DNA from: Rivularia sp. (in: cyanobacteria)
GTDB lineage: Bacteria; Cyanobacteriota; Cyanobacteriia; Cyanobacteriales; Nostocaceae
Length of the DNA: 64,000 nt
Reading direction: 5' to 3'
Assembly: GCA_965225665.1 (NCBI GenBank)
Contig: OZ245322.1
Span: 1,672,728 to 1,736,727, forward strand
Position 1 is the first letter of the stretch; the number at the start of each line of letters is the position of its first letter. The position numbers and the translations under genes were made by a program. The notes beneath the pieces were generated by a model. That model made no database searches. It had not been told where the DNA came from and was given only the letters and a program-made list of their open reading frames with translations. Below are positions 12,544 to 55,799 of the stretch, in pieces.

Positions 12544-15300
12544 TTAGTTTACCGATTGCTTGAGGTTAAGGCTTTTGTGTAGCAATTCCTCAACTTCTTC
12601 TAATTCAAATTGCTTTAATAACTGGACAATTTTTTGAGTAAAGGGTAGATAAGAATTGTCTTTTTGAGCAATTTCTTCAACCGTTTTCATTAGCTTGCTC
12701 AGCGAACCATTCTGCGACAATGCTAATAAAGTCTGTAAATCTTCTGTGCTTGGTAAAATTAGCTCTGCATTATTATCTTCATTAATTTGAGTGGCTGATT
12801 CTATTTCTGTTTCGTCATATTTCCAAGTTAGCTGTAGATGTTTGGCAAGAATGATAAATAATTCTTCTGCATCTACAGGTTTGGGCAGAAAATCATTAGC
12901 ACCTGCATCTAAACTGCTAGTTCGATCTATATCCGATACTGATGCCGATGAAATAATCGTAGTTATATGTTTGATTTCAGAATCATTGCGTAACTGTTTG
13001 AGCATTTCAAAGCCGTCCATTTCCGGCATCATAATGTCAGTTAGAATCAAATCGAATGGTTGTTGTTTGGCTTTGACTAATGCTTCTTTACCGTTTTCTG
13101 CTTCAGTTAATTTAAAATTAAGCGGCTTTAGTAATTCCATCAAAACTGAGCGGTTTTCCCATAAATCATCCACGATTAGAAGATGGCGAGGAACACCTTC
13201 ATAACCTACGATTTGTTCTTGATTATCTACTGAAATTTGTTTTGCCCATCTGTCAGAAATAGCTAAGCTGACTTCAAAACTGAAAGTACTACCGCTACCA
13301 AGTTGACTTTCAACTTCAATCTTGCTACCCATAAGTTCAACAATTTTTTGACTAATTGCTAAACCTAAACCCGTTCCCTCCGCTTGCCGTTTTTTATCGC
13401 CTACTTGCTCGAAGGAAGCGAAGATTTGCGCTTGCTCGCTATCGGCAATACCAATTCCTGTATCTTCAATTTGGAAAACGATCGAAGCGATGGATTGTTC
13501 GGTTGTTGATGCTTCTGAATTAATGTATTTGATGCGGAAGGCGACGCTGCCTTGCTCGGTAAATTTGATGGCATTGCTGAGGAGGTTAATTAATACTTGG
13601 CGCAGTCGTTTTTCATCTGCCAAAATACCTGTGGGAAGATTAGCATCTGGTTCGTAAATCAAGTCAATTCCTTTTTTTTCAGCCTGCACATGACAGATTT
13701 CCATTACTCCTTGCAAGAAAGCAGGAAAGTGAATCTCTTTGAATTCTAATTCTAATTTACGAGCTTCTATCTTAGAAATATCTAAAATGTCATTAATCAG
13801 GGTAAGTAGATGAGAAGCGCATTGGTGAATAATTTGAACTCCACGATCTTCTTTTTCTTTTAATTGTTTAGAGCGTTTAAGAATCTGGGCATAGCCTAAA
13901 ATACCGTTGAGGGGGGTACGAAGTTCGTGACTCATGTTCGCCAAAAATTCACTTTTGGCATGATTGGCAGCATCAGCAATTTCTTTCGCTTCCTTTAATT
14001 CTTCAGTGCGTGCCTCAACCCGATTTTCTAAGACTTCATTACTTTGGTGCAGTGCATTAAATGCAGATTGCAGTTGGGCAGCCATGCGGTTAAAAGCCTG
14101 GGCTAAAATATCAATCTCATTGACTTGAGATTTACCGACATTTTGATCTAGCTTACCTGTGGCGATCGCCTCGGAAGCTTGGCTCAACATCATGATAGGC
14201 TTGGTAATCCAGCGAGAGGTGAAAATACCTAAGAGTGTGGCAATACCCAGAGCAGCTAAACATAGCAAAATAGTGGTGTGGGTATTAGCATCGATTTGTC
14301 CCATAAAGTCAGATTCGGGAACAACAACAATACTCAGCCAATCCACGCCCCTTCCATCGTTAATCGGCAACACCTGAACAAACTGACGCTCACCTTGGAA
14401 ATCAAATTCTAATTGATGACTTTTGGTAATTTTATTAAGACTGCCAAATCTTCGATCTAAATATTTCGCAGTGGCACTAATAATACTGTCGCTAGAATTT
14501 ACAGCTTTAATTCTGCCAACTTTTTTGCCTTCAACAATATAAGGCTGCTCGATTTTTGAGCTAGCAACCATGTTTCCATTTCTTTCAATAACAAAGGTTT
14601 GTCCCGTACTACCAATTTTAATACTTGCTAAAAAATCGCTAATTTGTCCGACTTCAAAAAGATTTTGCAGAACCCCTAAGAGTTTGCCCGATTTATCGTA
14701 AATAGGTTGAGAAGGAGAAATCGCAACAACGGGACGATTGCTAGCTGCTCTAGCGTAAAACGGACTCCAAAAAGGAGCATTTGCTTTAACAGTAGTTGTG
14801 TACCAAGGGCGGGTTCGAGGATCGTATTCTTTCGACTTAATCAGTTTGATGCGATCGCCACGATTATCAAGGCTGTACACTTCCCGAATCGGCGCGGTGG
14901 AAGCATCTCGATATCGAGCCACCAGTCGATCTTCTTGCACTCGCTCGACAGCAACGTTGTATCCATCCACGCTGCCAAACTGAAGATAGTTGACGATTTT
15001 TTTATCTACCAATCGCCAGAAATATAGTTCTAGAGCCGGTAAATCGTTGACATCAATTTGTCCCGCTTCCATAGCCTCGGCAACCACCGCATTAACCGTA
15101 TGAGGATCGTTGAGGTAAGAAAAAACTCGTAGCTTAATGCGATCGCTGACTTCACTTCTTAGTTGACTGGCAACATCATTGACTGCCTTATGTCCGTTGC
15201 GGAGGGAAAGCCAACCAGTTAATCCCACCGCAGCAAAAATTTGCAGAATAAAGGGTAAAATTAATAACAGTTGCAAAGATATTTTTTTAGAATTATTCAT
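12544..15300 (-). CDS. Hybrid sensor histidine kinase: TM-dCache-TM-HAMP-HisKA-HATPase-REC plus C-terminal helical domain
   Basis: YDPRTRPWY Cache motif, [27 protein letters not shown] with LILTDIMMP. Confidence 0.92.
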
Positions 15301-15543
15301 TATTACTATTTGAATAAATAAGGATAAATTAAAGTCAAGGCAATTCGTAATTGCTTAGAGGTTGTTTGAAATAGCCTAATTTCATACTTCACCTGACGCT
15401 TGAAACCGCAGTTCCCGCGCAACGAACTGGCTTAGCTACATAAACAAAACCCCTCCGGCTTCATATCGGTGAATAATGAGCAGTCTAGTAGCGGTTTTTA
15501 CCACCGGATATGAAAGCATCCTCTTAATCATGTTAGTTTGCCT

Positions 15544-15552
15544 AGTATTCCC
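15544..15552 (-). promoter_or_regulatory. J-box (SigJ-type promoter element) GGGAATACT, 244 bp upstream of the 15300 start
   Basis: Exact GGGAATACT on the coding strand, preceded by T, in intergenic DNA. Confidence 0.6.
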
Positions 15553-15636
15553 AAATAATTGAAAAAACAAGCACAATTTAGTTATTAATTTTTAATTTAT
15601 TAAGTTAATTTAAAAATTTATTCAGATATAACTAGT

Positions 15637-17569
15637 TTAATAATTACCTTTGCCAAGGCTTTCTTGGAGCAGTTCCTCTATTTTTTCAAGTTCGCATTGC
15701 TTCGCTAAATACACAACTTTATGAGTAAAAGGCAGACAATCGCCATGCAGACCAATTTCTTCAGCAGTTTTCATTAGTTTGCTTAATGAACCATCCCGCG
15801 TTAATTTCAACAAAATCTGTAAATCTTCAGCGGTTGGTAAAACTAGTTCTGCCTGATTATCTTCACCGATGCTAGGAACTGAGGTAGAGTCAGCTTTCTC
15901 ATATTTCCAAGTTAGCTGAGGAACACCTTCATAAGCGATAAATTGCTCTTCGTTATTCACCGAATCCTGTTGTGTCAAGTTTTCAGAAAGACCCTAAGTT
16001 GACTTCAAAGCTGAAAGTACTACCTAACCCCAGTTGGCTCTCAATTTGAATTTTGCTACCCATAAGTTCAACAATTTTCTGACTAATTGCTAAACCTAAC
16101 CCCGTTCCTTCAATTTGGTATTTTTTATTACTTCCTTGCTCAAAGGAACGAAAGATTTTTGCCCGCTCGCTATCAGAAATACCGATACCTGTATCTTCTA
16201 CTTGGAAGCGAATACAATTAATAGATTGTTTGGCTAGTTTTTCAGATTTAATGTATTTTACTCTAAAAATAATGCTGCCTTGCTCGGTAAATTTGATAGC
16301 ATTGTTGAGGAGGTTTATTAATACTTGGCGCAGTCGTTTTTCATCAGCTAAGATAACTGTGGGGAGATTCAGATCGGGTTCATAAACAAAGGTAATTGCT
16401 TTTTCTTCTGCCTGCAAGCGACAGATTTCTATCGCTCCTTGCAAGAAATAAGGAAAGTGAATCTCTTTGAATTCCAATTCAAATTTGCCAGCTTCTATCT
16501 TAGAAATATCTAGAATGTCATTAATAACGGTGAGTAGATGAGAACCGCATTCGTAAATAATTTGCAGCCCATGATGTTCTTTTTCTTTTAATTCTTTTGA
16601 CTGTAGGAGAACCTGAGCATAGCCCAAAATACCGTTAAGAGGGGTACGAAGTTCGTGGCTCATGTTCGCCAGAAATTCACTTTTAGCTTGATTGGCTGCA
16701 TCAGCAACTTCTTTGCTATATTCGAGTTTTTCTGTATAGATTTGCTGTTCAAGTAAAAGTTGGTTGACACGATGAATAAGTTGATTAAAAGAAGAAGATA
16801 GCAATCCTACTTCGTCTTTGCTTTCAAGGTGAGCTTGTAGAGTAAAGTTATTTTCTTTAGTAACCTGTAAGGCGATTTGATTTAAAGTTTGGATAGGATA
16901 GGCAATCGTTCTACTAATATACACAGCTAGAATAATCCCGATCGCGATAGATATTACCAAACTTATAATGATAATTTGAGTACGGTTTTTTTCTGCCTGA
17001 AATAAGTAAGTTTGATTATAATTTTCTTGCTGTTCTGCAATCTCATAAAACTCAGTTAATCGATCTGAAAATTCAACAAAATCAGCAAACTCTTGGCTTT
17101 TTGCTAAATTCACCACCAGCTTTTCGGCTTTTTCTCTGTTGTCGGGTGATGCGATTAATAATGCATCTATCTCAGCGATAATATTTCGTGACAGCTCGGC
17201 AAACTCAGCAACGGTTATCTCATAATCTTCAAGTAGTGGCTGTAACCCTTTTAAAGTAGTAGCTCTAGCCGATTGATTATGGGTAGTCAACACTGCTTGA
17301 ATTTTTTCGATGCGCTCAATTAACTTCACGCCTTCGTTACGGAAAGCTTGCCGATTTTGCAAATGGGGCGTTAGTTGCTTAGTAAGACGATTGTACAAAA
17401 TATCAACTTGCAATTTGCTGAGAAATTTTCTTTCACTAGAAGCTCTTCGTTGAGCTTGTAGTGCCTGTTGCTGATGATGGTTTCCTACAAATAATCCTAT
17501 TCCCGTTCCTACTAGTGCAATTCCCAATGCGAGTACGTAACCGTAAATAATTTTATTTCTAATTTTCAT
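15637..17569 (-). CDS. HAMP histidine kinase paralog lacking the receiver domain but keeping the C-terminal helical domain (~643 aa after repair)
   Basis: ORFs 15983-17569 and 15637-15978 join by removing one base at CCC 15992-15994 ([14 protein letters not shown]). HisKA/HATPase closely resemble 12544-15300; YEGVP is followed directly by QLTWKY. Confidence 0.8.
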
Positions 17570-17702
17570 ACTTAATTACCGGCTTTGCATTTATTGAAAG
17601 TTGTAAGCAATGCCAGTGTGCGCTTCTCGATACGATAGATAATGAAGATGTATTTCCTCTGAGTGAAAACCATACTGCTAAATCCCTGATGCTTTTAGAT
17701 TT

Positions 17703-17711
17703 AGTATTCCC
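17703..17711 (-). promoter_or_regulatory. J-box GGGAATACT, 134 bp upstream of the 17569 start
   Basis: Exact match on the coding strand in intergenic DNA. Confidence 0.65.
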
Positions 17712-17798
17712 ACAGCAAACCGAATAAACTAGACATATATAAAAATATTTTCATAGTTATTGCAACCAAAGCCTATAGGAATATTATATTTTATCTAA

Positions 17799-20700
17799 TT
17801 ATTTAATAGGCAATTCAATTAAAAATTCTGTTCCTTCTCCTAATATTGAATTACAACTCAAATTACCCCGATGTTTTTCTACGACAATTGAATAGCTTGT
17901 TGATAAACCTAAACCCGTACCGCTACCGACGGGTTTTGTTGTAAAAAATGGGTCAAATATCTTATTTAAGATTGTTTTATTAATTCCAACGCCATTATCT
18001 TTGATACCAATTAATATATTTTGTTTATCTTTAAGTGAAGTACTAATTGTAATTATTGGTTTATCTTCCTGCTTTGCTCGCAAAGCATAAGTCGCATTAC
18101 CGATGATATTTAGAAACACCTGATTTAATTGAGAAGCATAGCAGTTAATTTGTGGAAGTTGACTATAGTTTTTAATTACTTCAATTTCTGAATATTTACT
18201 ATTTGAATTGATTTGATGCTGCAAAATTAATAGAGTGCTATCAATTCCAGAGTGAATATCTACGGGTTTTAACTCGGCTTCATCTAAGCGAGAGAAGTTT
18301 CTTAATGACAGAACAATTTCACGAATCCGCTCTGCACCTATTTTCATAGAATTAAGTAATTTTGGTAAATCGTCAATTATAAAATCGAATTCGATATCTA
18401 CAATTTTTGATTCAATTTCTTTTAGAGGTTGAGAATATAGATTTTGATACAAATCAATTAATTCAACTAAAGATTTTACGTATTCCGAAGCTGGGGTAAG
18501 ATTAGCGTAAATAAAGCTGATGGGATTGTTGATTTCGTGAGCGATACCGGCGACAAGTTGCCCCAAGCCGGACATTTTTTCAGTTTGAATCAGTTGGGCT
18601 TGAGTGCGTTGCAGTTGTTTTAACGTTTGGGTTAATTCTTGAGTACGTTGTTCAACTTTTTGCTCTAAAGTATAAGAATAATCTTCTAATTTGCTGTAAA
18701 GTTGAGCGTTTTCTAAAGAAATTGCAGCTTGGGTACAAAGTAAATTAAGAATGTCAACACGATTTTTTGTAAATGCACCAATCGTCAAGTTGTTTTCTAA
18801 ATACAATAATCCGATTAATTTACTTCGGTTCAAAATCGGCATACACAGCAAACTTTTGGGTTGTTGCAGTATTAAATATGAATCTGCGATAAAATCCGGG
18901 TGTTGTGCCGCATTATCTAATAGAACTGTTTTTAAGTTGCGTTTGACATAGTTAACTATTTTGTTGGGGATGTCTTTGCTGTTTTCACATGGTAAATCTA
19001 GCAGCTTAATATTTTCTTCTGTATTAGCTACTGCTTTTAACACTAAGGTATTATTTTTGAGCAACACTAAAGCAGCTTTTTGCGCTCCTGCATTTTCTAT
19101 AACTACTTGCATTAGCTTGGAAATTAATTGTTCTAATTGAATTTCGCTTGATAAAACTTGTGTTGCTTTGAGAATGCTGGCTAAATCGAGCTTTTCTGAA
19201 ATACTGCTACTTGAACTGGTTACTTGGATAGTTTGACTAATATTTTCCGATTTATCGAGGTTTTTAAAATCATTTTTTTGCGTTTTTAATATGGGTGCAA
19301 GCATTTGAGGATAGCTTTTTTCTAAGCGATCAATTTTAGCTTTTGCTTCCCATTTTAAGTAACAATAGTATGCTTTTTGCATATAGCTTGCAGCGATTTG
19401 TTCTTTACTCCAATCTAAGTAGAATTTGGCAGCAAGTTCGTTAGCAAGAGCTTCTTCATGGATAAAATTATTTTCTTTAGCTGCTTCAATCGCTTTGTCA
19501 TAATTTTCAATTGCATTTGCGAAATCGCGATTAACTCGATTGATTTCGGCTTGTAGTAGAAAGTATTTATGTTGAAAATTTTGCGGACATTGTTCAGCCC
19601 AACTTTTTAACTTTTCTTGATGAGTTATTACCCTTTTCCAGTAATAATTTTGCTGTTCTTTCTCCATACTTGGTAACTGTTTGAGAAAGACTAAAGGAGT
19701 ATAAAAATGATATTCGCCAGAAGTCACAAAACCGGCGATCGCCAATGTCAATTTTTCTGCCTCTAGGGCATGATTTAAGGATACCTCGGGCTGGTTTAGC
19801 AAGTAAAATACCTGACACTGGTATATATGATAAATTGCAAGTGCTATTGGGCTTTGATACTGAGTTAATTTACTGTTGGGGTTATTTTTTCCTAACAAGT
19901 TAAAGACAGTAAACTGAAGCGCTGATAAGATTTCAAATGTTAACTGATTTTTGGTTTTCTCGGCGAAAGGCAACCAATTGCTAATTTGTTCGTGAAGTTG
20001 CTCAAGTTTCGTACCTTTAAAATGAAGAATACAACCCAAAGCAAACAAATTGTAACCTGCAAATTGGATTTCTCCAGATTCTAAACCTGCTTGATACCCA
20101 CTCAGAGCAAACTTTTGTGCATCAGCGATGGGTTGATTCCAACTTGTTAACCAAGCACTCAGCAGCAAACTAGCTTTACACAATTGTTCCTGTTTTTGAA
20201 ATATTTCGCTTAGATTATAAGCAAGTAAGCCAAATTCATAGCCGGTTTTATAATCTCCTAAAACCGTACCTAAAATTAATCCATAATTTGCATAGGCTTT
20301 CGCCGATTCCGCAGCGTTACCGTATTCTAAGGAAAGTAAAGCTGCTTTGAGAGAAACAAATATATACAGATTCCAATTCCCAGTAATATAAGTTGGTGGA
20401 TCGAGATTTAGCAAAAGCTTAATTGCTGCTTTCTTGTCTTCTTGCTTCATCATCGATTTGTGCAAGATAGAGACAATTTCTTGTTGCTTTAATTCGGTTG
20501 TAATTTTTTGTAATTGTTCGTCGATTGAAGATTGCAAGTTATCTTGAGGTATATGAATACCCAATAAACGAAGTCCCTTGTTCGCCAACTTTAATTGCTT
20601 GCTCGTATTTACCTTCTAACGTAAATCTAACTACTAAAAGGTTATAAAGGTCAGCTTTTTCAATGTCTGAATTTGCTTTTTTGAGAGTATCGTAGACTAA

Positions 20701-23215
20701 ATTTTCTGTTCGTTCAAAGTTACCATTAAGGTATTCAGCTTCTGCCAATTGTCGATACAGTTGAAAACTTAATTTATACTCATGTTCCCAGCAGTCGCCA
20801 GCGAGCAAACTAATTCCTTGATTTAGATAGCTAACAGCGGCAGTATATGCAGTTGAATTCTTAGCTTTTAGCCCTGCTTGTAAATTGAGTTGAGCGATTT
20901 TATGTTGATTTTTTGCATCTTTTTTACAATAGATCAGACCATTATTTAGTTGATTGACTAATTCAAAAATCTTTTCTTCTAACTGTTGTTCTGAAAGTGT
21001 TGTTAATAGCAGTTGTCCAATTTGCCAATGAGTTTTATGTTTATCTTCCTCTGGAATCAAAGAATAAGCAGCTTGTTGAATTCTGTCATGTAAGAATTTA
21101 TATTTAACTACTTGAGAAGTCTGAGAATTAATTTCTTGATTTTCTACTTGAATAAAAAACTTATAAACATCACTTTGCGGTAATATCAAACCTTTTTGCA
21201 AAGCACTCCACAAACAAGCTGCCGTTTCTGTCTTTGATTGTTCCGAAATAATCGCTAATGTTTCTAAATCAAATTTATTGCCAATACAAGCGGCTAATTT
21301 CAAAATATCTTGAGTTGATTCTGGTAACTTGCGTAATTGCAGTACCATAAATTTAACGACATCATCTGTTAAAGCTGCCGAGCGGACTTTGTTAATATTG
21401 CATTGCCAATAACCTGCTTGATTATCGAAGTTAATTAGTTCATCCTGATATAGCGCTTTCAAAAACTGAGTTGCGAAAAACGGATTACCTTTGGTTTTTT
21501 GATAGACAATATCAGTTAAAGGTTTTGCTAATTGACTCGAACATGAAAGAGTATGAGCAACCAAATGAATTAAACTTTTCTTACTTAAAGGTTTAAGGAT
21601 AATTGTATTAATTATTGTTCCGGCTTTTTTCACCCCATCTAATATCAACATCAAAGGATGAGCCGGGAAAACTTCATTATCTCGGTAAGCACCAATTAAT
21701 AATAAATAACCTGTTTGTAATTCACATAAAAGCAACTGCATTAACTTTAAAGATGCGGAATCAGCCCACTGTAAATCATCTAAGAAAATAACTAAAGGAT
21801 GTTCTTTAGTAGTAAAAACTTGAATAAATTTTTGAAATAATAAATTAAATCTATTTTGTGCCGCAGTACCCGATAATTCCGGTGCTGGTGGTTGCTGATT
21901 TATAATTAGTTCTAATTCAGGAATTACATCTATAATTACTTGGGCATTATTTCCTAAAGCCTGTAATATTTCGTGTTTCCAGCTTGACAATTGAGCATCC
22001 GATTCGGTTGTTAACTGCTCCATTAAATCCCGAAATGCTTGCACAAAGGCACTCAAAGGAATATTGCGGTTGAACTGATCGAATTTGCCTTTAATAAAAT
22101 AACCGCGTTGTTTTACTATTGGTTTATGAACCTCATTGACTAAAGCAGTTTTTCCAATACCAGAAAATCCTGCTACTAACATTAATTTCGCTTTCCCCTC
22201 GTTAGGCACTGCCAGGGAACGAGAAGTGACACCAGCAACTCTATCAAATGCTGATAATAATTGTTCAACTTCGCTTTCTCTTCCGTAGAGTTTTTCCGGA
22301 ATAATAAATCTATCACAAATATCTCTTTGAGCAATTTCAAAACTTTCGATCTTTCCGGTTTGTTTAATTTGGTTTAAACAAGTTTCTAAATCATGCTTTA
22401 ATCCCAAAGCACTTTGATATCTATCTTCGGCATTTTTCGCCATCAACTTGATGACAATATTACTAATAACCTGGTGAATCTCTTGTCCCCCTCTCCTTAC
22501 CAAGGAGAGGGTTAGGGTGAGGTTTTTTCATGTTTGGAGGAGTTTTCGCAATATGACAATGCACTAATTCCATTGCATCATCCGATTGAAAAGGCAATTC
22601 CCCCGTTAATAATTCAAACAAAGTTACACCGAATGCATAAAAATCAGCCCGGTAATCAATTCCTCGATTCATCCTTCCGGTTTGCTCTGGTGATAAATAT
22701 GCAAGCGTCCCTTCTAAACTATTAAAACTTTTAATTTCTTGAATTTCTTTAGGTAGTAAAGATGCAATACTAAAGTCAATTAATTTAACTTGTTTTTCGG
22801 AATTTATTAAAATATTGGCAGGTTTAATATCTTTATGAATAACGCGATTTTGATGAAGATGGTGGAGAATATCGCTAATTTGCACTGCAATTGATAAGAC
22901 ATCTTGTAGAGACGCGATTTTTTTCCCTAGCATATATTGACGTAGAGAAACCCCACCAAAATCTTCCATTACCAAAGCATAGCTATTTCGATAAGGTTCA
23001 AGACTGTAAAAAACAACAATACCGGGAATATTTAAGTTTTTTACAATTGTGTATTGATTGCGAAACTGTACTAACTCGCTGAAATCTGGTAATAAATTTT
23101 TAAGCAGCTTGATAACTACAGGTTTTTGGTCATTTTCTCGAACAGCACGATATACCAGGGTTCTCGAACCGTTGTAAAGTTGTTCTAATATGTGATATCC
23201 GGAGATGCTAACCAT
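17799..23215 (-). CDS. Trifunctional Ser/Thr kinase - AAA (P-loop) - helical repeats - GAF - His kinase (~1804 aa after repair)
   Basis: Three ORFs join by single-base removals at 22487-22491 and 20575-20577. Motifs: HKDIKPANILI, DFS, GFSGIGKT, FLDDLQWAD, GAF (LLCMPIL...GLLYLEN), AHEINNP, GTGLGLS. Confidence 0.9.
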
Positions 23216-23250
23216 GCTGCGTTGATTCCAGTCTAAATGCTTGTGGATTT

Positions 23251-23259
23251 AGTATTCCC
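23251..23259 (-). promoter_or_regulatory. J-box GGGAATACT, 36 bp upstream of the 23215 start
   Basis: Exact match; flanking context nearly identical to the box at 34937. Confidence 0.75.
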
Positions 23260-23416
23260 AAATCATTCACAAAACAATCAAAATCATTCTTAAACATAGA
23301 ATTAGATGGTTAGCAATCTTCGCATTTTATTTCCCGGTTGTCAGAAAGCAAGATACGAACATTACGAAAATTAATTGCAACAACTAGATATAAACTAAGG
23401 CATTAATTGTTATTTC

Positions 23417-24523
23417 TTAACGTGCCAAAATAATTTCAAAGATTGCTCCTTGGGGCTGGTTATTCCTAACATTAATTTTGCCTCCATGTGCTTCTACAAC
23501 CATTTTGCAAAAAGCTAAACCCAAGCCTATTTGAGAGACATCCGTCATTAAAGTTCCAATTTCGTATTTCTCGAAAATTTTGTGTTTCAATTCATCGGGA
23601 ACCCCCCGTCCACAGTCAATAACCTGAATTTTGCAATCACCAGATGCAAGGAATTCTGCCTTGACTACAATTTCACTATTAGCTGGAGAATATTTAATTG
23701 CATTTGAGATTAGATTATCCAGGGTTCGGTGCATCATTGTGATATCAACAAAGACTTTTCTGGGGGATTCTTCTGGTAATTGACCGATCAAAAGCTGATT
23801 TTTTCGAGTTGCAATCGTTTCAAAATTTGAGATGACAGACAAAATAAGTTCGCACAGGTTAACCTCCATACAATTAAGAGAAACTTGATCGGATTCGAGC
23901 AGTGCCATTGTCAGTAAATCATCAATTAATAGCTTTAGTGTTTGTGCCGACGAATAAATTCGAGACAGTTTATGCTGTTGCTTCTCTCTAGAATGGTTCC
24001 CACTTTTGAGAATCTCCACACCCAGCAATACATCAGTAAGGGGATTGCGGAGGTCGTGAACTACCATGTGAACCATGTCTTCCCGCAGTTTTAGCAGTGA
24101 TTGCAACTCGTCATACTGATGTTTAATTCGTAGCATCGAGTCAACTCTAGCCAGCAGTTCAATCGCATTAATCGGCTTGCTAATGAAATCATCGGCACCC
24201 GATTTTAGACAGTTAGCTAAATCTTGTTTACCGTTAAGAGCCGTAACCATAATAATGGGTACCGATCGCCACTGGGGCATTGCTTTAATCCGCCCGCAGG
24301 CTTCGATACCATCCATTCCCGGCATCATTACATCAAGTAAAATAATATCGGGTTTAAAGGTGTCAAGAGATCCGATCGCATCTTCTGCATTTGCCGCATA
24401 GTGCAATTGATAATCACGATCTTCCCCTGAAGAAGCTTTACTAACACCAACGCTCAACAAAGTTTCAATTACATCAAAATTACTGGGTTCGTCATCAACG
24501 ATTAATACGGATGGTTGATTCAT
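23417..24523 (-). CDS. Hybrid response regulator / histidine kinase (REC-HisKA-HATPase)
   Basis: VLIVDDE, ILLDVMMPGMDG, ISKP, VHDLRNPL, GLGLAFC; start overlaps the stop of the upstream gene by 4 bp. Confidence 0.9.
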   Translation of the reverse strand: MNQPSVLIVDDEPSNFDVIETLLSVGVSKASSGEDRDYQLHYAANAEDAIGSLDTFKPDIILLDVMMPGMDGIEACGRIKAMPQWRSVPIIMVTALNGKQDLANCLKSGADDFISKPINAIELLARVDSMLRIKHQYDELQSLLKLREDMVHMVVHDLRNPLTDVLLGVEILKSGNHSREKQQHKLSRIYSSAQTLKLLIDDLLTMALLESDQVSLNCMEVNLCELILSVISNFETIATRKNQLLIGQLPEESPRKVFVDITMMHRTLDNLISNAIKYSPANSEIVVKAEFLASGDCKIQVIDCGRGVPDELKHKIFEKYEIGTLMTDVSQIGLGLAFCKMVVEAHGGKINVRNNQPQGAIFEIILAR

Positions 24524-26480: not shown

Positions 26481-26489
26481 AGTATTCCC
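26481..26489 (-). promoter_or_regulatory. J-box GGGAATACT, 141 bp upstream of the 26340 start
   Basis: Exact match on the coding strand in intergenic DNA. Confidence 0.65.
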
Positions 26490-26558
26490 AAACCATGCAA
26501 AAAAATTACATTTTAAGTTTAAATCTTTATATTTCAGATCATTTCTGAGGGGTTAGGG

Positions 26559-34936: not shown

Positions 34937-34945
34937 AGTATTCCC
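34937..34945 (-). promoter_or_regulatory. J-box GGGAATACT, 30 bp upstream of the 34907 start
   Basis: Exact match on the coding strand. Confidence 0.75.
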
Positions 34946-35071
34946 AAATCATTCAAAAAATTATAATTAAAGTCAAAATATTTATCTTTATTATTGACAA
35001 AAAACGCTGCTTATGGAGTAAGAAACGAACTGTTTGCTCTTTCCCAGCTATAGAAATTCATTTCTACGATG

Positions 35072-35120: not shown

Positions 35121-35174
35121 ATATAAAATACGCTGTTACTAAGTTCGAGTACAGCGATTATCTGGAGGCTAAAT

Positions 35175-46247: not shown

Positions 46248-46269
46248 TTTATGCCAACTCTGGGAACAA

Positions 46270-46412
46270 TAAATGAGGATGGGGGGATGGGGAGATAGGG
46301 AGACAAGGGGACAAGGTGACAAGGGGATGGGGTGAAATCAAGATTCTTAACTCATAACTCATAACTCCTAACTCCCAACCTTTGACCTTTGACCTTTGAC
46401 CTTTAACCTTTA
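46270..46412. repeat. Heptamer STRR arrays (representative locus)
   Basis: TAACTCA/TAACTCC and TGACCTT runs. Similar arrays near 10885, 11900, 12450, 28965-29070, 41800, 42835-43000, 45110, 49185, 56780 and 60055. Confidence 0.85.
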
Positions 46413-46426
46413 ACCTTATTCGTTGC

Positions 46427-49234: not shown

Positions 49235-51715
49235 CTATTTACAAATACATTGTTTCAAGGGAATAGTAATTACAAACTCAGTTCCTTCTCCGGGTGCGGA
49301 AATACACTCCAAAGAACCAAAGTGTTTTTCTACAACAATTTGATAACTAATTGATAATCCCATTCCGGTACCTTTTCCTACTGGTTTAGTTGTAAAAAAT
49401 GGATCGAAAAGTCTTGTTTTAATTTTTTCGGGAATTCCCTTTCCGTTGTCGGATATAAAGATTTTTACTTGCTTGCATCCTTCTAATTCCGTTTTAATAC
49501 TAATAGTAGGAGAATTCTCATCTCCAATTTCTTCTTCTAATGCATCGAGTGCATTAGCTAAAATGTTCATAAACACCTGGTTTAATTGACCGGGATAACA
49601 TTCTATTTGTGGTAAATTACTATAATCTTTGATAATTTCAATTCTGGAACGGTCGTGTTTAGCTTTGATACGATGTTCTAAAATCATCAAAGTGCTGTCA
49701 ATGCCTTCATGGATATCAACTTCTTTCATTTGTGCTTCATCCATGCGGGAAAAGTTACGTAAGGAAGCCACTATTTCCCGAATGCGTTGCGCTCCTACTT
49801 TCATCGAACTTAAAAGCTTGGGTAAATCTTCTACTAAAAATTCTAAGTCTAATTCTTCTGTTAATTCCTGTATTTCTAATGCAGGCTGAGGATAATTTAT
49901 GCGGTAAGTTTCGATGATTTCTAATAAGTCTTGAATGTAGTTATTCGCATGGTTTAGATTTCCGTAAATAAAGTTGACAGGATTATTTATTTCATGAGCT
50001 ACACCTGCCACCAATTGACCTAAACCGGACATTTTTTCGCTTTGCACTAATTGTGTTTGGGCACGTTGCAGTTCGCTAAGTGTATTTTCTAAATCTTTAG
50101 CTTTTTGATTTACTTCTGTTTCGGCTTGTTTGCGAGCGGTAATATCGTTACGAATGGCAATGTAGTGTTGTGGTTTACCTTCTTCATTTAGCATTGGCAC
50201 AATGGTTGTGTCTACCCAGTAAAGACTTTTATCTTTGGCACAATTTTGTATTTCTCCTCGCCAAACTTTACCGTTAGTAATGGTTTCCCACATTTGGGTA
50301 AAGAGGGATTTAGGATGATTCCCAGAGTTAACAATCCGATGGTTTTTACCAATTAATTCTTCGCGGCTATATTGGGATATTTCGCAAAATTTATCGTTAA
50401 CGTATTCAATATTTCCACTTTCGTCAGTAATCGCTACAATTGCAGCTTGTTCTAAAGCAAACTTAATATCGGCGGATTCTTTTAAAGAGTTGAGTAATGC
50501 TGTTTCTGCTTGCCTGCGTTGGGTAATGTTTAAAGCTGTGGATACAAGTCTGTAGATTTTGCCAGAATTATCTTTTAAAGGATTAATAGTAATTAAATGC
50601 CAACTTGGCTGATTTTTAAAAGTGACACATTCTTCAAAGCAAAAAGATTGACCTGTTTCCAAGCATTTACGATAACTTTGGGATAATCTTGCACCTTCAA
50701 CCTCTCCGAATAATTCTTCTGGAGTCTTACCAATAACTTGTGTTTGAGTTAAACCACTATTTTTTTCTGCTGCTGAGTTAATTCCTGCATAGCGAAAGCC
50801 GTCTTCGCTAACATCAATAACAACTATAGAATTATCAGCACCATCGTAAACTGTGCGAAGAAATTGCTCTTGCTTTTGTAACAATTCCGACTCTCGTTTG
50901 CGTTCGGTAATATCAAATGCCATTGAAGCAATACCAACTACTTCACCATTAGCAGCCACCAAAGGATAGTTATACCATTCGCAAACAATTTTTCTACCAT
51001 CTTTAGTTACATTTTCATTGGTGCTGAACATCCTTTGTTTCTCAATAACAAAGTTTTGGAACATTTCTTCTAAACGAATTTTAAAATCATCTGTGGCTAA
51101 AAAGCTAAAATCACGACCTAAAACTTCGCTTTTGCTGTATCCGAAAATCCTTTCTGCGGCTTGATTCCACTCTTTAATTTCAAAATTACGATTCCATTCA
51201 ATCACCGCTAGCGGAGTTTGTTGCACCATTAATGCTAAACGGCGCTGTTGAGACTCTATCAGCAATTGTTCCTCTAACTTACGCTTAGTTATATCTTCAA
51301 TGCGGCAAAGCATACCAACAATTTCGCCAACAGAGTTAATTAAAGGATTTTTACGAATATCTAACCAGACTTGCTCGTTTGAAGCTAAACTATAAATGAT
51401 TGTTTTCTCAACAGTAATATTTTGTTCGATAACTTGGCGATCGCCCGCAAAGCTACCATTTTGAACCTGATTTCCCAAGAAACCGAACATTGGATTTTTT
51501 AAAGGTAATTCCGAGTCTGTTTTACCGACAATCTGTTGGGGGGAAGTTAACCCTACGGCTCTAGCAAAAGCTAAATTACAACCTTGAAAAACTAAATCAT
51601 TATTTTTCCAGTAAATCAATTCAGGTAAATTGTCAATGACTAATTGACACATAGGTAGCGAATTGACTGCATTTTCGTTAAGGGGTTGTAAAGACTTAAA
51701 TTCTGCCGGTAGCAT
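49235..51715 (-). CDS. Cytoplasmic multi-PAS histidine kinase (4 PAS/PAC)
   Basis: Repeated PAS/PAC (DIT.RK), AHEINNP, DPFFTTKPVGKGTGMGLS; no TM segment, no receiver. Confidence 0.9.
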   Translation of the reverse strand: MLPAEFKSLQPLNENAVNSLPMCQLVIDNLPELIYWKNNDLVFQGCNLAFARAVGLTSPQQIVGKTDSELPLKNPMFGFLGNQVQNGSFAGDRQVIEQNITVEKTIIYSLASNEQVWLDIRKNPLINSVGEIVGMLCRIEDITKRKLEEQLLIESQQRRLALMVQQTPLAVIEWNRNFEIKEWNQAAERIFGYSKSEVLGRDFSFLATDDFKIRLEEMFQNFVIEKQRMFSTNENVTKDGRKIVCEWYNYPLVAANGEVVGIASMAFDITERKRESELLQKQEQFLRTVYDGADNSIVVIDVSEDGFRYAGINSAAEKNSGLTQTQVIGKTPEELFGEVEGARLSQSYRKCLETGQSFCFEECVTFKNQPSWHLITINPLKDNSGKIYRLVSTALNITQRRQAETALLNSLKESADIKFALEQAAIVAITDESGNIEYVNDKFCEISQYSREELIGKNHRIVNSGNHPKSLFTQMWETITNGKVWRGEIQNCAKDKSLYWVDTTIVPMLNEEGKPQHYIAIRNDITARKQAETEVNQKAKDLENTLSELQRAQTQLVQSEKMSGLGQLVAGVAHEINNPVNFIYGNLNHANNYIQDLLEIIETYRINYPQPALEIQELTEELDLEFLVEDLPKLLSSMKVGAQRIREIVASLRNFSRMDEAQMKEVDIHEGIDSTLMILEHRIKAKHDRSRIEIIKDYSNLPQIECYPGQLNQVFMNILANALDALEEEIGDENSPTISIKTELEGCKQVKIFISDNGKGIPEKIKTRLFDPFFTTKPVGKGTGMGLSISYQIVVEKHFGSLECISAPGEGTEFVITIPLKQCICK

Positions 51716-51744: not shown

Positions 51745-51753
51745 AGTGTTCCC
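51745..51753 (-). promoter_or_regulatory. J-box variant GGGAACACT, 30 bp upstream of the 51715 start
   Basis: 8/9 match, same spacing as the box at 34937. Confidence 0.65.
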
Positions 51754-51881
51754 ACATTAGCTTTGTAAATAAACAATCTAATATAGGGAATGGGGAATAG
51801 GGAAAAAACAAAAAAGATAAATTTTCATTGCAAATTATTTTGAATTTTTAGCACTACTCGCTATTTACTACTCTCCACTCC

Positions 51882-54800
51882 CTACTCCCTTTTATAAACT
51901 GGTATTTGTATTTGAAATTCCGTACCTTCTCCCAAAGTAGAAATACAGTTTAATTGTCCCTCATGCTGCTCAACTATAATCTGGTAGCTCATAGATAATC
52001 CCAAACCAGTACCTTTACCTACAGGTTTGGTAGTAAAAAATGGGTCGAATAGCTTGTTGATATTGTCTTTGGGAATACCGGAGCCATTATCAATTATGCT
52101 AATTTGCACAATATCCTGCTGTATTAGTTTAGTTGAAATACGAATTTGGGGATATTCGTTTTCAGATATTTGTTGATTTTTGATTGCTTCTTCTAAAGCA
52201 TCAATTGCATTATTCAAGATATTTAGAAAAACTTGATTAAGTTTTCCTGCATAACATTCAACTAAGGGTAAATCTTCAAATTCTTTGGTAACTACAATTG
52301 CAACTCTTTCTGGTTTTGCTTCAAGATTATTCTGCAAAATCATTAAAGTGCTATCAATACTTTCATGAATATCAATCGTTTTAAACTCTGCTTCATCTAA
52401 GCGCGAAAAAGTTCTCAAAGAAAGTACAATTTTGCCAATTCTTTCGGCTCCTGTTTTCATAGATTTAATAATCGAATGCAAATCTTCTTGAAGATAATCA
52501 AATTCAATTTTTTGAATAAATTCTTCTGCTTCCGAATTATCGGGAGAATTGCTCTGATAAATTTTAATCAATTCTAATAAATCTTCAAAATATTCTTGAG
52601 TGTAGGTAAGATTAGCATCAATAAAGTTAACGGGATTATTAATCTCATGAGCAATTCCGGCTACTAATTGTCCCAAACTGGACATTTTTTCACTTTGAAT
52701 TAGCTGAACTTGAGTACGTTTTAATTGTAAAAGAGCTTTTTCTAATTCTTGTGTTTGCTGACGTAATTTTGCTTCAGCTTGCTTGCGTTCTGTTATATCT
52801 CTAAAATAGAATATCTTACCATAATTATCTCCAGCTAAAGAAAGTACTGAAGCAATATAGCGCTCCAAAGTTTTTCCATCTTTTAAATAAATCTCATTAC
52901 GGCAACTTTTATCTGGATGCTCAAATAGATATTCTAAAGTAGATACAAATTCTTCGGGATTTTCTTGTTTGTCTAACATCGAAGCAAAAATTGGTTCGTG
53001 CTTACCTGTTTCAATGGCATACTGGGGAATTTGCCATAAATCGATAAAACGCTGATTATATGATATCGATTCGCGATATTCATCAACAACTAAAATACCA
53101 TCAATAGAAGCTTCTTGTTGCGCTTGCAAAACTGAATTAGTCCTCTTCAAAGATTGTTCTGCTTGTTTGCGTTCGGTTATATCTCGGAAATACCAAACTC
53201 TACCAATATATTCCCCTCTCAAAGAATTTACAGGAGCACAATAGCGTTCAAAAGTTCGTCCATCTCCTAAATCAATCTCATCGCGAATAGATTTTTCTGC
53301 ATCATTATATAAATTTTCTACTTCATTAATAAATTCTCCTAAATTTGTAAATTTATCTACCATTGATGCTAAAAACTGTTGTTCATCTCCGCTTTCAATA
53401 ATCGACTGAGGAATTTGCCATAGCTCTACAAAACGCTGATTGCACGATAAAATATTTTGATTTTCATCAACAAATAAAATACCGTCAATTGCAGCTTCTT
53501 GTTGAGCTTGTAACATGGCGTTACTAAGCAATAGAGCTTTTTCTGCTTGCTTGCGTTCCGTTACATTTAAGATAAAACCATACCAAGCAATAGTGCCATT
53601 TTCTAATTTTTCGGGACGAGAATGACTTTTTATCCATTTAATTTCTCCAGAAGCAAGAACTATTCTTCCTTCATGTTCCCAAGGTTTGAGATTCTTCGCA
53701 GAAATAGTCCAAGAAGTTTCAAAACTTTTCAAATCATCTGGATGAGCCATTGAAAAAATGGAATCGGGATCTGCTTGAATTTGTTCTGGTTGTAAACTAT
53801 AAATTTCATAGCAACCAGGGGACTAACATAAGGAAAAGACATCGAACCATCGGGATTCAGTTCAAATTGATAAAGCATTCCCGGTACATTTGCTGCTAGT
53901 TTCTGCACTTTAGCTTCAGTTTCGCGCAGCGCCTCTTCGGTATTTTTACGTTCTTCAATTTCAGCTTTTAATACTTTATTTGTCCGGCTTAATTCTTTAG
54001 TTCGCTCTAAAACCAGCGATTCCATTTCTCCATAAGCTGCTTGCAAAGCTTTTTTTGTTTGCTTGAGGTGAGTAATATCGGAAAGAAAACCATCCCAAAT
54101 AATTGAACCATCAAGTTGTTTCTGAGGACGAGATTCAGTTTTTACCCATTGAATCTTTTCAGATGATTTAATTAAACGTCCTTCCCAATAAAATGGTTCA
54201 AAAGTTTCGACTGAATTATTAAGCGACTTCTCAAAAGTTTTATAGTCTTCCGGATGAATCATCGAAATAAACAAGTTCGATTCTGCTTGAATTGTTTCTG
54301 CTGCTATTCCTAATAGTTCATAACTACCAGGACTAACATAAGGAAAAGACATCGAACCGTCGGGATGCATTTTAAATTTGTAGAGCATTCCCGGTATATT
54401 CATTGATAACTGATGAAATTTCTCTTCGCTTTGTTTTAAAGCTTCTTCTACCTGCTGGCGTTCGGTAATATCTTCAATAGTCGCAAGCACTCCTACTACA
54501 TTCTCTTCTTCATCTTTTAATGGAATTTTGTTAGTATCTAACCAAATTTGTTTACCATCTGCTAGCTGTTTCTTCTCGATGATATGTAATTCTGGAACTC
54601 CAGACTCTATTACTCGCTTGTCCCCATTCCCGATACCAGTCAGATTGTTCTTTACTTATAGAAAAATCATCGTCAGTTTTTCCAAATATTTCCTCAGTAG
54701 AACTTAAACCCCATACATTCGCAAGTTTTTGGTTACAACCAAGAAAAGCACTATTGCAATCTTTCCAAAAAATACTTTGCGGTATATTATCGACTACTAA

Positions 54801-55742
54801 CTGTAAAAAATATTTTGATTCTGTCAGTTTTTCTTGCAATTTATGGCGATAAAAAGCTCCTGCAAAACATTCAGCAGCAGCTTGTAAAGCAGACTTTTCG
54901 CTATCTAACCATTGACGTTTTTCAGAACTATCAAAGCGGATATATCCCCAAAATTCTGCTACCTGAATTGGTATTACCAAAGTAGAATAAATATTGGCAG
55001 CTTCTAAAATTTCTCGCTCCGAATCGGGAAAATCATTTACCGAACCTGCAATAATATCACCTTGAGAAAGTATTTCATCCCATCGTGTAAAAATATCGAA
55101 TTGTTTTTCAACATCATTCTTTGACCATTTCCAATGCTGGTTGACTTGTTTATTTTCAGTATTACTTTTACTATTAAAACCTATTATAGATACTTGATCT
55201 ACATCCGTAGCACTTCCTAAAGCCGCCAAAGCAGCATTATATGATTCATCAAAATCGCTAATAGTTAAAAGATTACTTATTGCTTTAATTAAATCTAAAG
55301 TAAAATCGTTTAATTTCTCTTCTAGTAGTTGCTTATTCTCAGAAGCTTTAATTTCTTTAATCGTACCAATTAAAAATTGATTGCCAGACTCATCATTAAA
55401 TAAAGATTTTTTTGTCGAAACAATATAAACTTTACCTTCAGCGTCGGTAAAATATCCTTCCGAGTCATTACTGACACCCGAAGTGAATATTAATTCATCT
55501 TTTTCGCGAAAAATATCGGCTTCTTTGGTAGAAAAAAAATCGTAGTCCGATTTACCAATCAATTCCTCCTGGCCATAGCCCGTCAACTCGCAGAAAGCAT
55601 TATTAAGAAATATCCATTGATGTTGCCGGTTTTTAACAAAAATAGGATCGGATACATTATTAATTATTTCAAGCAGAAAACTTTGAGAAAGGAAATTCCT
55701 GGAGTTGTCTGTTGGTAGATAGGGATTCATTGGCGAAGTCAT
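51882..55742 (-). CDS. Large PAS-GAF-multi-PAS histidine kinase (~1285 aa after repair)
   Basis: Three ORFs join at CCCC 54622-54625 (-1) and GGGG 53818-53821 (-2, restoring YVSPG as in the preceding PAS copy). AHEINNP, GTGLGLS. Confidence 0.85.
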
Positions 55743-55790
55743 CTATTACGAATCAGCTTGATACTTGCTGCTTCTCTAGCCTTATCTTCT

Positions 55791-55799
55791 ATTATTCCC
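55791..55799 (-). promoter_or_regulatory. J-box variant GGGAATAAT, 49 bp upstream of the 55742 start
   Basis: 8/9 match on the coding strand, preceded by T. Confidence 0.55.

What the first reader, a model, noticed from the sequence alone, without database searches (positions are those of the whole stretch)
12544..55799. Seven sensory-kinase transcription units each carry a SigJ-type J-box: a candidate hormogonium signalling network
Seen in sequence: TGGGAATACT lies on the coding strand upstream of 15300, 17569, 23215, 26340 and 34907 (exact). One-mismatch variants lie upstream of 51715 and 55742. That is every kinase unit here except the CHASE2 kinase, covering 8 kinase genes, and I saw none upstream of housekeeping genes. 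A rough base-composition estimate gives about 0.5 exact 9-mers per 64 kb; the only other exact copy I noticed is antisense inside a gene (33376). Established knowledge: GGGaAtacT is the SigJ-dependent promoter element reported for hormogonium development in Nostoc punctiforme. Inference: these hybrid, multi-PAS and Ser/Thr-His kinases form one co-induced, uncharacterised developmental or motility signalling network. No DNA-binding response regulator is present, so the output may be post-translational or encoded elsewhere.
Basis: partly seen in the sequence, partly recalled or inferred. Interest (0 to 1): 0.82.

Follow-up and report, generated by a model that had tools for sequence, protein, structure and literature searches.

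The report
SigJ-type promoters upstream of sensor kinases
In this Rivularia-like cyanobacterial segment, the published SigJ "J-box" promoter motif sits in front of seven of eight sensor-kinase transcription units, largely because one promoter was copied along with duplicated kinase genes and then kept, so these kinases are probably switched on together with the motile-filament (hormogonium) programme; this is a solid but unsurprising extension of a known regulon.

Summary
Five exact TGGGAATACT copies and two one-mismatch variants lie intergenic, on the coding strand, upstream of seven kinase units; 0.43 exact 9-mers are expected by chance. A weight matrix built from 78 published Nostoc punctiforme SigJ promoters scores these sites 14.8-21.8 bits.

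The boxes are not seven independent events. All five exact copies belong to one 52-nt repeat family. The two Ser/Thr-His "HstK-like" genes are paralogues, and so are the dCache and HAMP kinases. Two boxes carry decayed HstK 5' coding remnants in front of unrelated kinases.

The box is nevertheless conserved. Syntenic Rivularia, Calothrix and Richelia loci keep it, and 27 of 56 HstK-like genes from species-representative genomes have one within 110 nt of the start (about 0.35 expected). N. punctiforme promoters of the same design (Npun_R4071, Npun_R2272) and a hybrid kinase (Npun_F1600) are experimentally sigJ-dependent.

Verdict: these are very likely SigJ-type extended -10 promoters, new members of a known kind. 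No transcript data exist for this organism. The "hormogonium network" idea is plausible but untested.

The parts
34937..34946 (-). J-box TGGGAATACT (21.8 bits), ending 29 nt before the ATG at 34907 of HstK-A
   Evidence: The identical box and leader occur in L001 and L002, which are about 95% identical in nucleotides. A box next to the MOSC gene is also present in Richelia L061.
29065..34907 (-). HstK-A, a Ser/Thr kinase-AAA_16-GAF-PAS-HisKA-HATPase gene read here as three overlapping ORFs (32202-34907, 30428-32233, 29065-30462)
   Evidence: Pfam. L001 and L002 are uninterrupted for more than 1100 aa. The first junction is an AAA versus AA homopolymer difference.
26481..26490 (-). J-box TGGGAATACT (19.3 bits), followed 30 nt later by a decayed HstK 5' remnant (MINIPRYRIKKKDNISSKT*); 140 nt before the ATG at 26340
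   Evidence: Window 26364-26534 aligns to the HstK promoter and 5' end in L001 (2124-2292, 70% identity, E 7e-11). A terminator-like hairpin at 26617-26633 separates it from the radical-SAM gene upstream.
23417..26340 (-). GAF-HisKA-HATPase-REC hybrid kinase (24520-26340) and REC-HisKA-HATPase kinase (23417-24523), which overlap by 4 nt
   Evidence: Pfam. It is not an HstK paralogue: 26% identity, in the kinase core only. The gene order is syntenic in L005 and L057.
23251..23260 (-). J-box TGGGAATACT (21.1 bits), ending 35 nt before the ATG at 23215 of HstK-B
   Evidence: The orthologous box is in L005/L057 at the same place (20.7 bits).
17799..23215 (-). HstK-B, a paralogue of HstK-A (75-84% nucleotide identity), read as three ORFs (22463-23215, 20539-22503, 17799-20588)
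   Evidence: Pfam. Repeat families D2-D9 have a spacing of about 11.7 kb. The junctions coincide with G-run length differences against L057.
17703..17712 (-). J-box TGGGAATACT (21.1 bits), followed 29 nt later by a decayed HstK 5' remnant (MVFTQ...); 133 nt before the ATG at 17569
   Evidence: The box and leader are conserved in L057 (19.9 bits). The small ORF is broken by indels between the two genomes, so it is not a conserved coding sequence.
15637..17569 (-). HAMP-HisKA-HATPase kinase (528 aa plus a 113-aa continuation; one 639-aa gene in L057)
   Evidence: It is a paralogue of the dCache kinase over the kinase core (D1, D6, D14; 79-84% identity).
15544..15553 (-). J-box TGGGAATACT (17.7 bits), 243 nt before the ATG at 15300
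   Evidence: The identical 19-mer is in L057, but that whole intergenic region is highly similar. There is no box in Mastigocoleus L058 or Nostoc L062, and only a 12.6-bit site in Nostoc L064.
12544..15300 (-). dCache-HAMP-HisKA-HATPase-REC hybrid kinase
   Evidence: Pfam; orthologues.
51745..51754 (-). J-box variant TGGGAACACT (19.6 bits), ending 29 nt before the ATG at 51715
   Evidence: It is conserved at the same place in L059 (identical), L060 Calothrix CCY 0018 (GGGAACACT) and L061 Richelia (GGGAATACT). The variant occurs in validated N. punctiforme promoters such as Npun_F4125 and F5544.
49235..51715 (-). 4xPAS-HisKA-HATPase kinase
   Evidence: Pfam; orthologues of 73-94% identity.
55791..55800 (-). 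J-box variant TGGGAATAAT (14.8 bits), ending 48 nt before the ATG at 55742
   Evidence: The identical 19-mer is in L059 and L060. The variant occurs in validated N. punctiforme promoters Npun_R4127, R1060 and R3263.
51882..55742 (-). PAS-GAF-PAS-HisKA-HATPase kinase read as three ORFs (54552-55742, 53729-54490, 51882-53750)
   Evidence: Pfam. It is a single 1286-aa gene in L059.
46259..46277 (+). J-box-like site TCTGGGAACAATAAATGAG (17.2 bits), 165 nt before the moxR-like AAA_3 ATPase gene at 46427-47227; not in the original finding
   Evidence: It is conserved before moxR in L059 (17.6 bits), L060 (15.1) and L061 (17.7). GGGAACAAT occurs in N. punctiforme J-box promoters Npun_R5142 and F0944.

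Best explanation
The seven boxes are extended -10 promoter elements of the SigJ type.

Mechanism (inferred). RNA polymerase carrying a group-3 sigma factor (SigJ or a close relative) binds GGG through sigma region 3 and opens the DNA at the aAtacT hexamer. Transcription should then start about 6-7 nt after the terminal T. That gives leaders of about 22 nt before the two HstK-like Ser/Thr-His kinases and the 4xPAS kinase, and longer leaders (about 40-240 nt) before the other four units. All eight kinase genes would therefore be transcribed whenever that sigma factor is active. In Nostoc punctiforme that is during hormogonium (motile filament) development.

Origin (shown by sequence comparison). 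The local concentration of boxes comes from history as well as selection. One HstK-type promoter was multiplied by gene duplication: HstK-A/HstK-B, and the dCache/HAMP kinase pair. In two places a roughly 170-bp piece holding the promoter and the first codons of an HstK gene sits in front of an unrelated kinase.

What is shown: the presence, orientation, statistics, paralogy and cross-species conservation of the boxes, and sigJ dependence of same-design promoters in N. punctiforme.
What is inferred: the start sites, the identity of the sigma factor and the inducing condition in this organism.
For: - The motif and its flanks match the published consensus (TGGGWAWWCTAAAC, TGGGAATWMTAAA).
- All sites are intergenic and co-oriented with the downstream gene, and scores are bimodal between kinase and other genes.
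- The 10-mer is 100% identical in five copies whose 52-nt context is only 62-75% identical.
- Orthologous boxes are kept in L057 (the only three sites of at least 12 bits in 22.8 kb), L059, L060 and L061.
- 27 of 56 HstK-like loci from different species have a box of at least 12 bits within 110 nt of the start. Background is 0.006 per 100 nt.
- Information content peaks on the box.
- Npun_R4071 (cluster 12, sigJ regulon) has its annotated start 6 nt after the box. Its promoter is 92% identical over 39 nt to the sequence just upstream of a Pkinase-AAA_16 gene in Nostoc L026.
- Npun_R2272 has the same 29-nt spacing from box to ATG.
- Npun_F1600, a hybrid histidine kinase, has an exact box. Its reads rise 11->655 in wild type and stay at 0-2 in the second block of columns, which I read as the sigJ mutant.
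- Rivularia sp. PCC 7116 has a J-box before pilB.
- Ordinary sigma-70 consensus sites are not enriched here (56 found against 67.9 expected).
Against: - There is no transcript start, expression or mutant evidence for this organism. The only RNA run is a metatranscriptome from relatives about 90% identical, and its contig stops 32 nt inside the 4xPAS CDS.
- The sigJ gene is not in the window.
- The sites are paralogous, so the enrichment statistics overstate independence.
- For the dCache kinase the box is conserved only in a close relative whose whole intergenic region is similar. It is missing in Mastigocoleus and in one Nostoc homologue.
- The box at 55791 is the weakest (14.8 bits).
- That Npun_R2272 and Npun_R4071 are HstK-like rests on promoter homology and spacing, not on their protein sequences, which I could not retrieve.
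- About half of the HstK-like homologues, mostly Oscillatoriales, have no box.
Confidence: 0.72

Rival explanations
1. Passive paralogy. The boxes are only leftovers of recent duplications of one upstream region and have no promoter function of their own. The apparent enrichment is a copy-number artefact.
For: All five exact copies belong to one repeat family (D10). The HstK-A/B and dCache/HAMP genes are paralogues. Two boxes are followed by decayed HstK coding remnants.
Against: - The 10-mer is invariant while its 52-nt context has drifted to 62-75% identity.
- The coding remnants have decayed and differ by indels between genomes, but the box and leader have not.
- The two non-paralogous PAS-kinase promoters and the moxR promoter also carry conserved boxes.
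- The box persists before HstK-like genes in Rivularia, Calothrix, Nostoc and some Oscillatoriales.
- Promoters of the same design are functional in N. punctiforme.
Confidence: 0.08
2. The element is the same but the regulator or the condition differs. The boxes are read by SigF or another group-3 sigma factor, or by SigJ under a condition other than hormogonium differentiation, such as desiccation or light stress. The kinases would then be co-regulated but would not form a hormogonium network.
For: The source paper reports J-boxes before pilB in species that lack sigJ but have sigF, and notes similarity to the SigF -10 region. A later paper mentions overlap between SigJ and SigF promoter recognition. 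From my own knowledge, untested here, SigJ of Anabaena PCC 7120, which makes no hormogonia, has been linked to desiccation and light stress. The moxR box shows the set is not limited to signalling genes.
Against: In the one organism tested, promoters of this design are stringently sigJ-dependent and induced in hormogonia. Rivularia sp. PCC 7116 has a J-box before pilB. From my own knowledge, Rivulariaceae do form hormogonia.
Confidence: 0.17
3. Composite control region. In the HstK-type copies the conserved block is wider than a J-box. AATGAT lies directly upstream, and an inverted repeat CTAAATC-N13-GATTTAG spans the predicted start. It could therefore be an operator for a DNA-binding regulator, or overlap a second, sigma-70-type promoter. 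The J-box resemblance would then be only part of the story.
For: TTGACT-17-AATGAT lies immediately upstream of the box at 34937. AATGATT is conserved in many HstK-type promoters. Inverted repeats of 6-10 bp occur in several copies, and Npun_R2272 has a different arm sequence.
Against: The inverted repeat is absent from, or no better than shuffles in, about half of the copies. Sigma-70-like sites are not enriched. The PAS-kinase and moxR boxes lack these extras. This rival adds regulation to the SigJ promoter reading and does not exclude it.
Confidence: 0.1

Closest known systems
J-box (GGGaAtacT) SigJ-dependent promoters of Nostoc punctiforme (Gonzalez et al. 2019, PMC6495340)
   Same: The core is the same, with invariant GGG, A at position 5 and T at position 9. 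The preferred flanks are the same (T before the box, AAA after it). The upstream region is AT-rich and otherwise weakly conserved. Orientation is forward relative to the gene, and the box lies tens of nucleotides before the start codon.
   Different: In this organism they are predicted from sequence only, with no start-site or sigJ-mutant data. Eight such sites lie within 42 kb, seven of them before kinases, largely through local duplication.
N. punctiforme sigJ-regulon genes Npun_R4071, Npun_R2272 and Npun_F1600
   Same: - R4071: the promoter is homologous to that of a Pkinase-AAA_16 gene in a Nostoc genome.
- R2272: it has the same 29-nt box-to-ATG spacing and leader style as the window's HstK genes.
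- F1600: a membrane hybrid histidine kinase with the box TTTGGGAATACTAGG, like the window's dCache kinase, and strictly sigJ-dependent induction.
   Different: Orthology to the window genes is not proven; I could not retrieve their protein sequences. They are scattered in the N. punctiforme genome rather than clustered, and the paper's main text does not discuss them.
HstK-type dual Ser/Thr-histidine kinases of heterocystous cyanobacteria (HstK of Anabaena PCC 7120; named from my own knowledge)
   Same: The domain order Pkinase - AAA_16 - (TPR) - GAF - (PAS) - HisKA - HATPase is the same. A full-length 1881-aa relative exists in Mastigocoleus.
   Different: Both window genes are interrupted by frameshifts, possibly assembly errors. 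I did not find the link to a J-box promoter discussed in the papers I read.
SigF-dependent promoters such as pilA1 of Synechocystis PCC 6803
   Same: They depend on a group-3 sigma factor and on a G-rich extended -10 region. The source paper proposes that SigF may read J-boxes where sigJ is absent.
   Different: The consensus sequence differs, and I could not compare it here because the SigF motif was not available to the tools.

Membership tests
SigJ-dependent J-box promoter | Core GGGaAtacT with invariant GGG, A at position 5 and T at position 9 | tested here: met
   All seven sites and the moxR site keep these five positions. Five sites are the exact consensus.
SigJ-dependent J-box promoter | Forward orientation, upstream of the first gene of a transcription unit | tested here: met
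   All sites are intergenic and on the coding strand, 29-243 nt before the start codon. A terminator-like hairpin precedes the unit at 26481.
SigJ-dependent J-box promoter | Flanks of the published consensus: T before GGG, A-rich after the box, AT-rich and weakly conserved -35 region | tested here: met
   Weight-matrix scores over positions -2 to +16 are 14.8-21.8 bits. The upstream regions are T/A-rich.
SigJ-dependent J-box promoter | Transcription start about 10 bp downstream of the centre of aAtacT | not testable with these tools
   No RNA run exists for this organism. The metatranscriptome contig ends inside the CDS. In N. punctiforme the annotated start of Npun_R4071 is 6 nt after the box.
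SigJ-dependent J-box promoter | Transcription abolished in a sigJ mutant and induced during hormogonium development | not testable with these tools
   This is shown only for the N. punctiforme counterparts.
SigJ-dependent J-box promoter | A sigJ (or sigF) gene is present in the genome | not tested
Indirect support: Rivularia sp. PCC 7116 has a J-box before pilB.
SigJ-dependent J-box promoter | Conservation of the box in orthologous promoters | tested here: met
   Met for HstK-A and HstK-B, the remnant/HAMP unit, and the 4xPAS and PAS-GAF kinases. Met only weakly for the dCache kinase. The promoter at 26481 could not be checked in a relative.
HstK-like dual Ser/Thr-His kinase | N-terminal Pkinase, AAA_16 NTPase, GAF, and C-terminal HisKA plus HATPase_c in one polypeptide | tested here: inconclusive
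   All domains are present in the right order, but each gene is split over three frames. Close relatives are uninterrupted. The breaks fall at homopolymer length differences, and leuA is also split, so assembly error is likely.

The most novel reading that the evidence does not exclude
The HstK-type SigJ promoter acts as a copyable cassette of about 170 bp, holding the J-box, the short leader and the first codons. This cassette has been placed in front of unrelated sensor-kinase genes at 26481 and 17703. There the coding remnant decayed while the box stayed intact. The SigJ (hormogonium) regulon would thus grow by promoter capture. HstK-like dual kinases, which carry a J-box in Rivularia, Calothrix, Nostoc and some Oscillatoriales, would be core, still uncharacterised regulators of the motile-filament programme.
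Probability: 0.35. Interest if true: 0.5.

Novelty: new member of a known kind. Interest (0 to 1): 0.35.

Why it matters
If the prediction holds, a defined set of eight sensor kinases and a MoxR ATPase joins the SigJ programme in a second family of heterocystous cyanobacteria. The widespread HstK-like Ser/Thr-His kinases, whose function is unknown, would gain a testable role in hormogonium development or motility. N. punctiforme offers ready mutant targets: Npun_R2272, Npun_R4071 and Npun_F1600. The locus also gives a small, clear example of regulon growth by duplication of a promoter together with gene fragments. It does not change what is known about how SigJ promoters work.

Tried and rejected
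- Exact-sequence look-ups of three window proteins found no record, so the source genome could not be named. Relatives place it in Rivularia.
- Literature searches for Npun_R2272, R4071, R2804 and R2301 found nothing. The Cappable-seq paper on hormogonia (10.1099/mic.0.001111) is not held. Data Set S1 is cut before Npun_R2272.
- A homologue search seeded with Nostoc L026 did not single out the N. punctiforme protein.
- Two read-laying runs failed, one on length and one on a filter. Runs X1 and X2 look like genomic DNA of this strain plus a strain about 2.4% divergent, not RNA. Metatranscriptome X12 gave no 5' end.
- I rejected the idea that the GAF-HK-REC gene is an internally deleted HstK: 26% identity, in the kinase core only.
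- I rejected the idea that the small ORF after the box at 17703 is a conserved leader peptide: indels break the frame between the two genomes.
- I rejected the idea that the leader inverted repeat is a universal feature: it is significant in only about half of the copies.
- The J-box-like site antisense inside HstK-A (GGG at 33975, 17.9 bits) is not kept in the paralogue (CGG at 22297), so it is probably coding chance.
- Weak sites before surE (12.4 bits) and ribF (11.7 bits) are not conserved across the relatives.
- Deep conservation of the dCache-kinase box was not found.


Full report
**Observation.** Exact TGGGAATACT occurs five times, always on the - strand, at 15544, 17703, 23251, 26481 and 34937. 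One-mismatch variants lie at 51745 (TGGGAACACT) and 55791 (TGGGAATAAT). Six exact 9-mers are found against 0.43 expected, and no shuffle reaches six. The sixth is antisense inside a CDS at 33376. All seven named sites are intergenic and co-oriented with the next gene downstream.

**Genes.** Pfam gives these units on the - strand:
- a dCache-HAMP hybrid kinase (12544-15300);
- a HAMP kinase (15637-17569);
- a Pkinase-AAA_16-GAF-HisKA-HATPase gene, here called HstK-B (17799-23215, three ORFs);
- a GAF hybrid kinase plus a REC kinase (23417-26340);
- a radical-SAM gene;
- a second dual kinase, HstK-A (29065-34907, three ORFs);
- a 4xPAS kinase (49235-51715);
- a PAS-GAF-PAS kinase (51882-55742, three ORFs).

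A CHASE2 Ser/Thr kinase (3369-5522) has no box.

**Organism.** The closest relatives are Rivularia genomes, with 88-95% identity in several genes. G+C content is 37%.

**What the motif is.** GGGaAtacT is the published J-box, the extended -10 region of sigJ-dependent promoters in Nostoc punctiforme. In that paper 93 of 118 promoters in three sigJ-regulon clusters carry it, and the gvpA start site places aAtacT at -10 (PMC6495340). The paper's MEME motifs extend to TGGGWAWWCTAAAC and TGGGAATWMTAAA. I built a weight matrix from 78 of those promoters and scanned the window. Eight sites score at least 15 bits against 0.5 expected. Six of these are kinase promoters, and the site at 55791 scores 14.8.

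Gene by gene, the best upstream co-oriented site scores 14.8-21.8 bits for 7 of 8 kinase units. It scores 12.4 bits or less for 27 of 28 other genes. Both one-mismatch variants, and GGGAACAAT, occur among the validated N. punctiforme promoters.

**The sites are not independent.** All five exact boxes fall into one 52-nt repeat family whose members are 62-75% identical outside the invariant 10-mer. HstK-A and HstK-B are paralogues along their whole length. The dCache and HAMP kinases are paralogous over the kinase core. The boxes at 26481 and 17703 are each followed, 29-30 nt downstream, by an ATG and a decayed HstK N-terminus: MINIPRYRIK...* and MVFTQ...*. Window 26364-26534 aligns to the promoter and 5' end of an HstK gene in L001. 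The kinase downstream of 26481 is not an HstK derivative. The small ORF after 17703 is not conserved as coding sequence. A single promoter type has therefore been multiplied by gene duplication and, twice, by copying a promoter-plus-5'-end fragment in front of another kinase.

**Conservation.** In the syntenic Rivularia locus L057, the only three sites of at least 12 bits in 22.8 kb are the orthologous boxes before HstK, before the remnant/HAMP kinase and before the dCache kinase. Before the 4xPAS kinase the box is kept in L059, in Calothrix CCY 0018 (L060) and in Richelia (L061). In L061 it reads GGGAATACT and the sequence further upstream has diverged, although roughly 25 nt before the box and the leader remain similar. 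The PAS-GAF box is kept in L059 and L060, and the moxR box in all three.

Across 56 HstK-like loci from species-representative genomes, 27 have a box of at least 12 bits within 110 nt of the start. The background rate is 0.006 per 100 nt. Information content peaks on the box. The homologues without a box are mostly Oscillatoriales.

The dCache box is the weak case. It is absent in Mastigocoleus, where the gene follows an intact 1881-aa HstK. It is absent or marginal before Nostoc homologues.

**Link to experiment.** In the published sigJ regulon (cluster 12), Npun_R2272 has GGGAATACT followed by 29 nt and then ATG. That is the spacing seen at 34937. Npun_R4071 has GGGAAAACT with the annotated start 6 nt downstream. 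Its promoter is 92% identical over 39 nt to the sequence immediately before a Pkinase-AAA_16 gene in Nostoc sp. JL34. [quoted passage not shown] Its reads rise from 11 to 655 in wild type and stay at 0-2 in the second block of five columns, which I read as the sigJ mutant. Rivularia sp. PCC 7116 has a J-box before pilB. The paper's main text does not discuss these kinases.

**Mechanism.** The best reading is that these are SigJ-type extended -10 promoters, so the eight kinases and moxR are co-transcribed when that sigma factor is active. What is shown: motif, orientation, statistics, paralogy, conservation and the behaviour of N. punctiforme counterparts. What is inferred: start sites, sigma identity and the inducing condition in this organism.

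No RNA data exist for the organism. Runs X1 and X2 look like DNA, and a marine metatranscriptome gave no 5' end.

Three rivals remain. Passive paralogy is unlikely given the invariant box in drifting flanks and its conservation across genera. Recognition by SigF, or a condition other than hormogonium development, cannot be excluded. An added operator or second promoter in the HstK-type copies is possible.

**Split genes.** Three kinase genes are each read as three ORFs. Close relatives are uninterrupted. Three of the five junctions compared coincide with single-base length differences at or beside short A or G runs. The housekeeping gene leuA is split too. Assembly indels are therefore as likely as real pseudogenes, and I make no claim either way.

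**Verdict.** This is a new set of members of a known promoter class, with a modest extra point: the J-box is conserved before HstK-like kinases, and the promoter has been copied to other kinases. It is of interest to specialists in cyanobacterial development but is not surprising.

Noticed in passing
window 46259-46277 (+); L059 13318, L060 13304, L061 11771: A J-box-like site (GGGAACAAT, 15-18 bits) lies about 120-165 nt before a moxR-like AAA_3 ATPase gene, just after the ribF stop. It is conserved in four genomes, so the predicted regulon here is not limited to kinases.
   Followed up: partly
window 32273, 30445, 22480, 20560, 8578-8988, 46427-47227: Three kinase genes, leuA (468 aa plus a 136-aa LeuA_dimer fragment in another frame) and probably moxR (266 aa against 302 in relatives) are interrupted. 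Three junctions are single-base length differences at or beside short A or G runs against relatives. These may be assembly indels or real frameshifts.
   Followed up: partly
window 34909-34946, 17675-17712, 23223-23260; L021; Npun_R2272: An inverted repeat spans the predicted start in several HstK-type promoters: CTAAATC-N13-GATTTAG, 10 bp in Calothrix NIES-2100, and GCTGAA/TTCAGC in N. punctiforme. It is absent in about half of the copies and its meaning is unknown.
   Followed up: partly
window 34948-34976 (-) and equivalent positions in HstK-type promoters: AATGAT(T) lies directly upstream of the J-box and is conserved in many HstK promoters. At 34937 it forms TTGACT-17-AATGAT, a possible overlapping sigma-70-type promoter.
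   Followed up: no
window 33975 (+), inside HstK-A CDS: A strong J-box-like site (TTCGGGAATAATAAATCTG, 17.9 bits) lies antisense within the AAA_16 region. The paralogue has CGG instead of GGG at 22297, so it is probably a coding coincidence rather than an antisense promoter.
   Followed up: partly
window 62685-63773 (-) and 63975-63995: This is an IS605-family TnpB gene (OrfB_IS605, Cas12f1-like TNB). Upstream lies the palindrome CCGTGGGGATACTCCCCACGG, which produces a false one-mismatch hit to the motif.
   Followed up: no
L058 (Mastigocoleus testarum) 1-5751; L057: The dCache hybrid kinase lies directly downstream of an HstK-like gene in Mastigocoleus as well. The neighbourhood of HstK-like and dCache kinases is therefore older than the Rivularia lineage.
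   Followed up: no
L060 6562-7815 (Calothrix sp. CCY 0018); L061: In Calothrix the PAS-GAF kinase is reduced to a HisKA/HATPase remnant that keeps its J-box. In Richelia RM2_1_2 it is absent altogether. This part of the cluster is being lost and rearranged among relatives.
   Followed up: no
window 29100-35200, runs X1/X2: Two 2024 runs of one organism hold contigs identical to the window at low depth (53x and 3x). They also hold a strain about 2.4% divergent at about 320x, whose sequence lacks one A at 32273 and so keeps HstK-A in frame there.
   Followed up: partly
window 10938-12455: A DnaJ-like gene (CbpA-type, 312 aa) is followed by a 97-aa ORF. Its L057 counterpart is a MerR_2 protein (CbpM-like), giving a chaperone-modulator pair next to the kinase cluster.
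   Followed up: no
window about 51780-51830; L059, L060: Short C-rich heptamer-like repeats (CCCTATT/CCCCATT) lie just upstream of the 4xPAS kinase promoter. They vary between relatives and are absent in Richelia L061.
   Followed up: no
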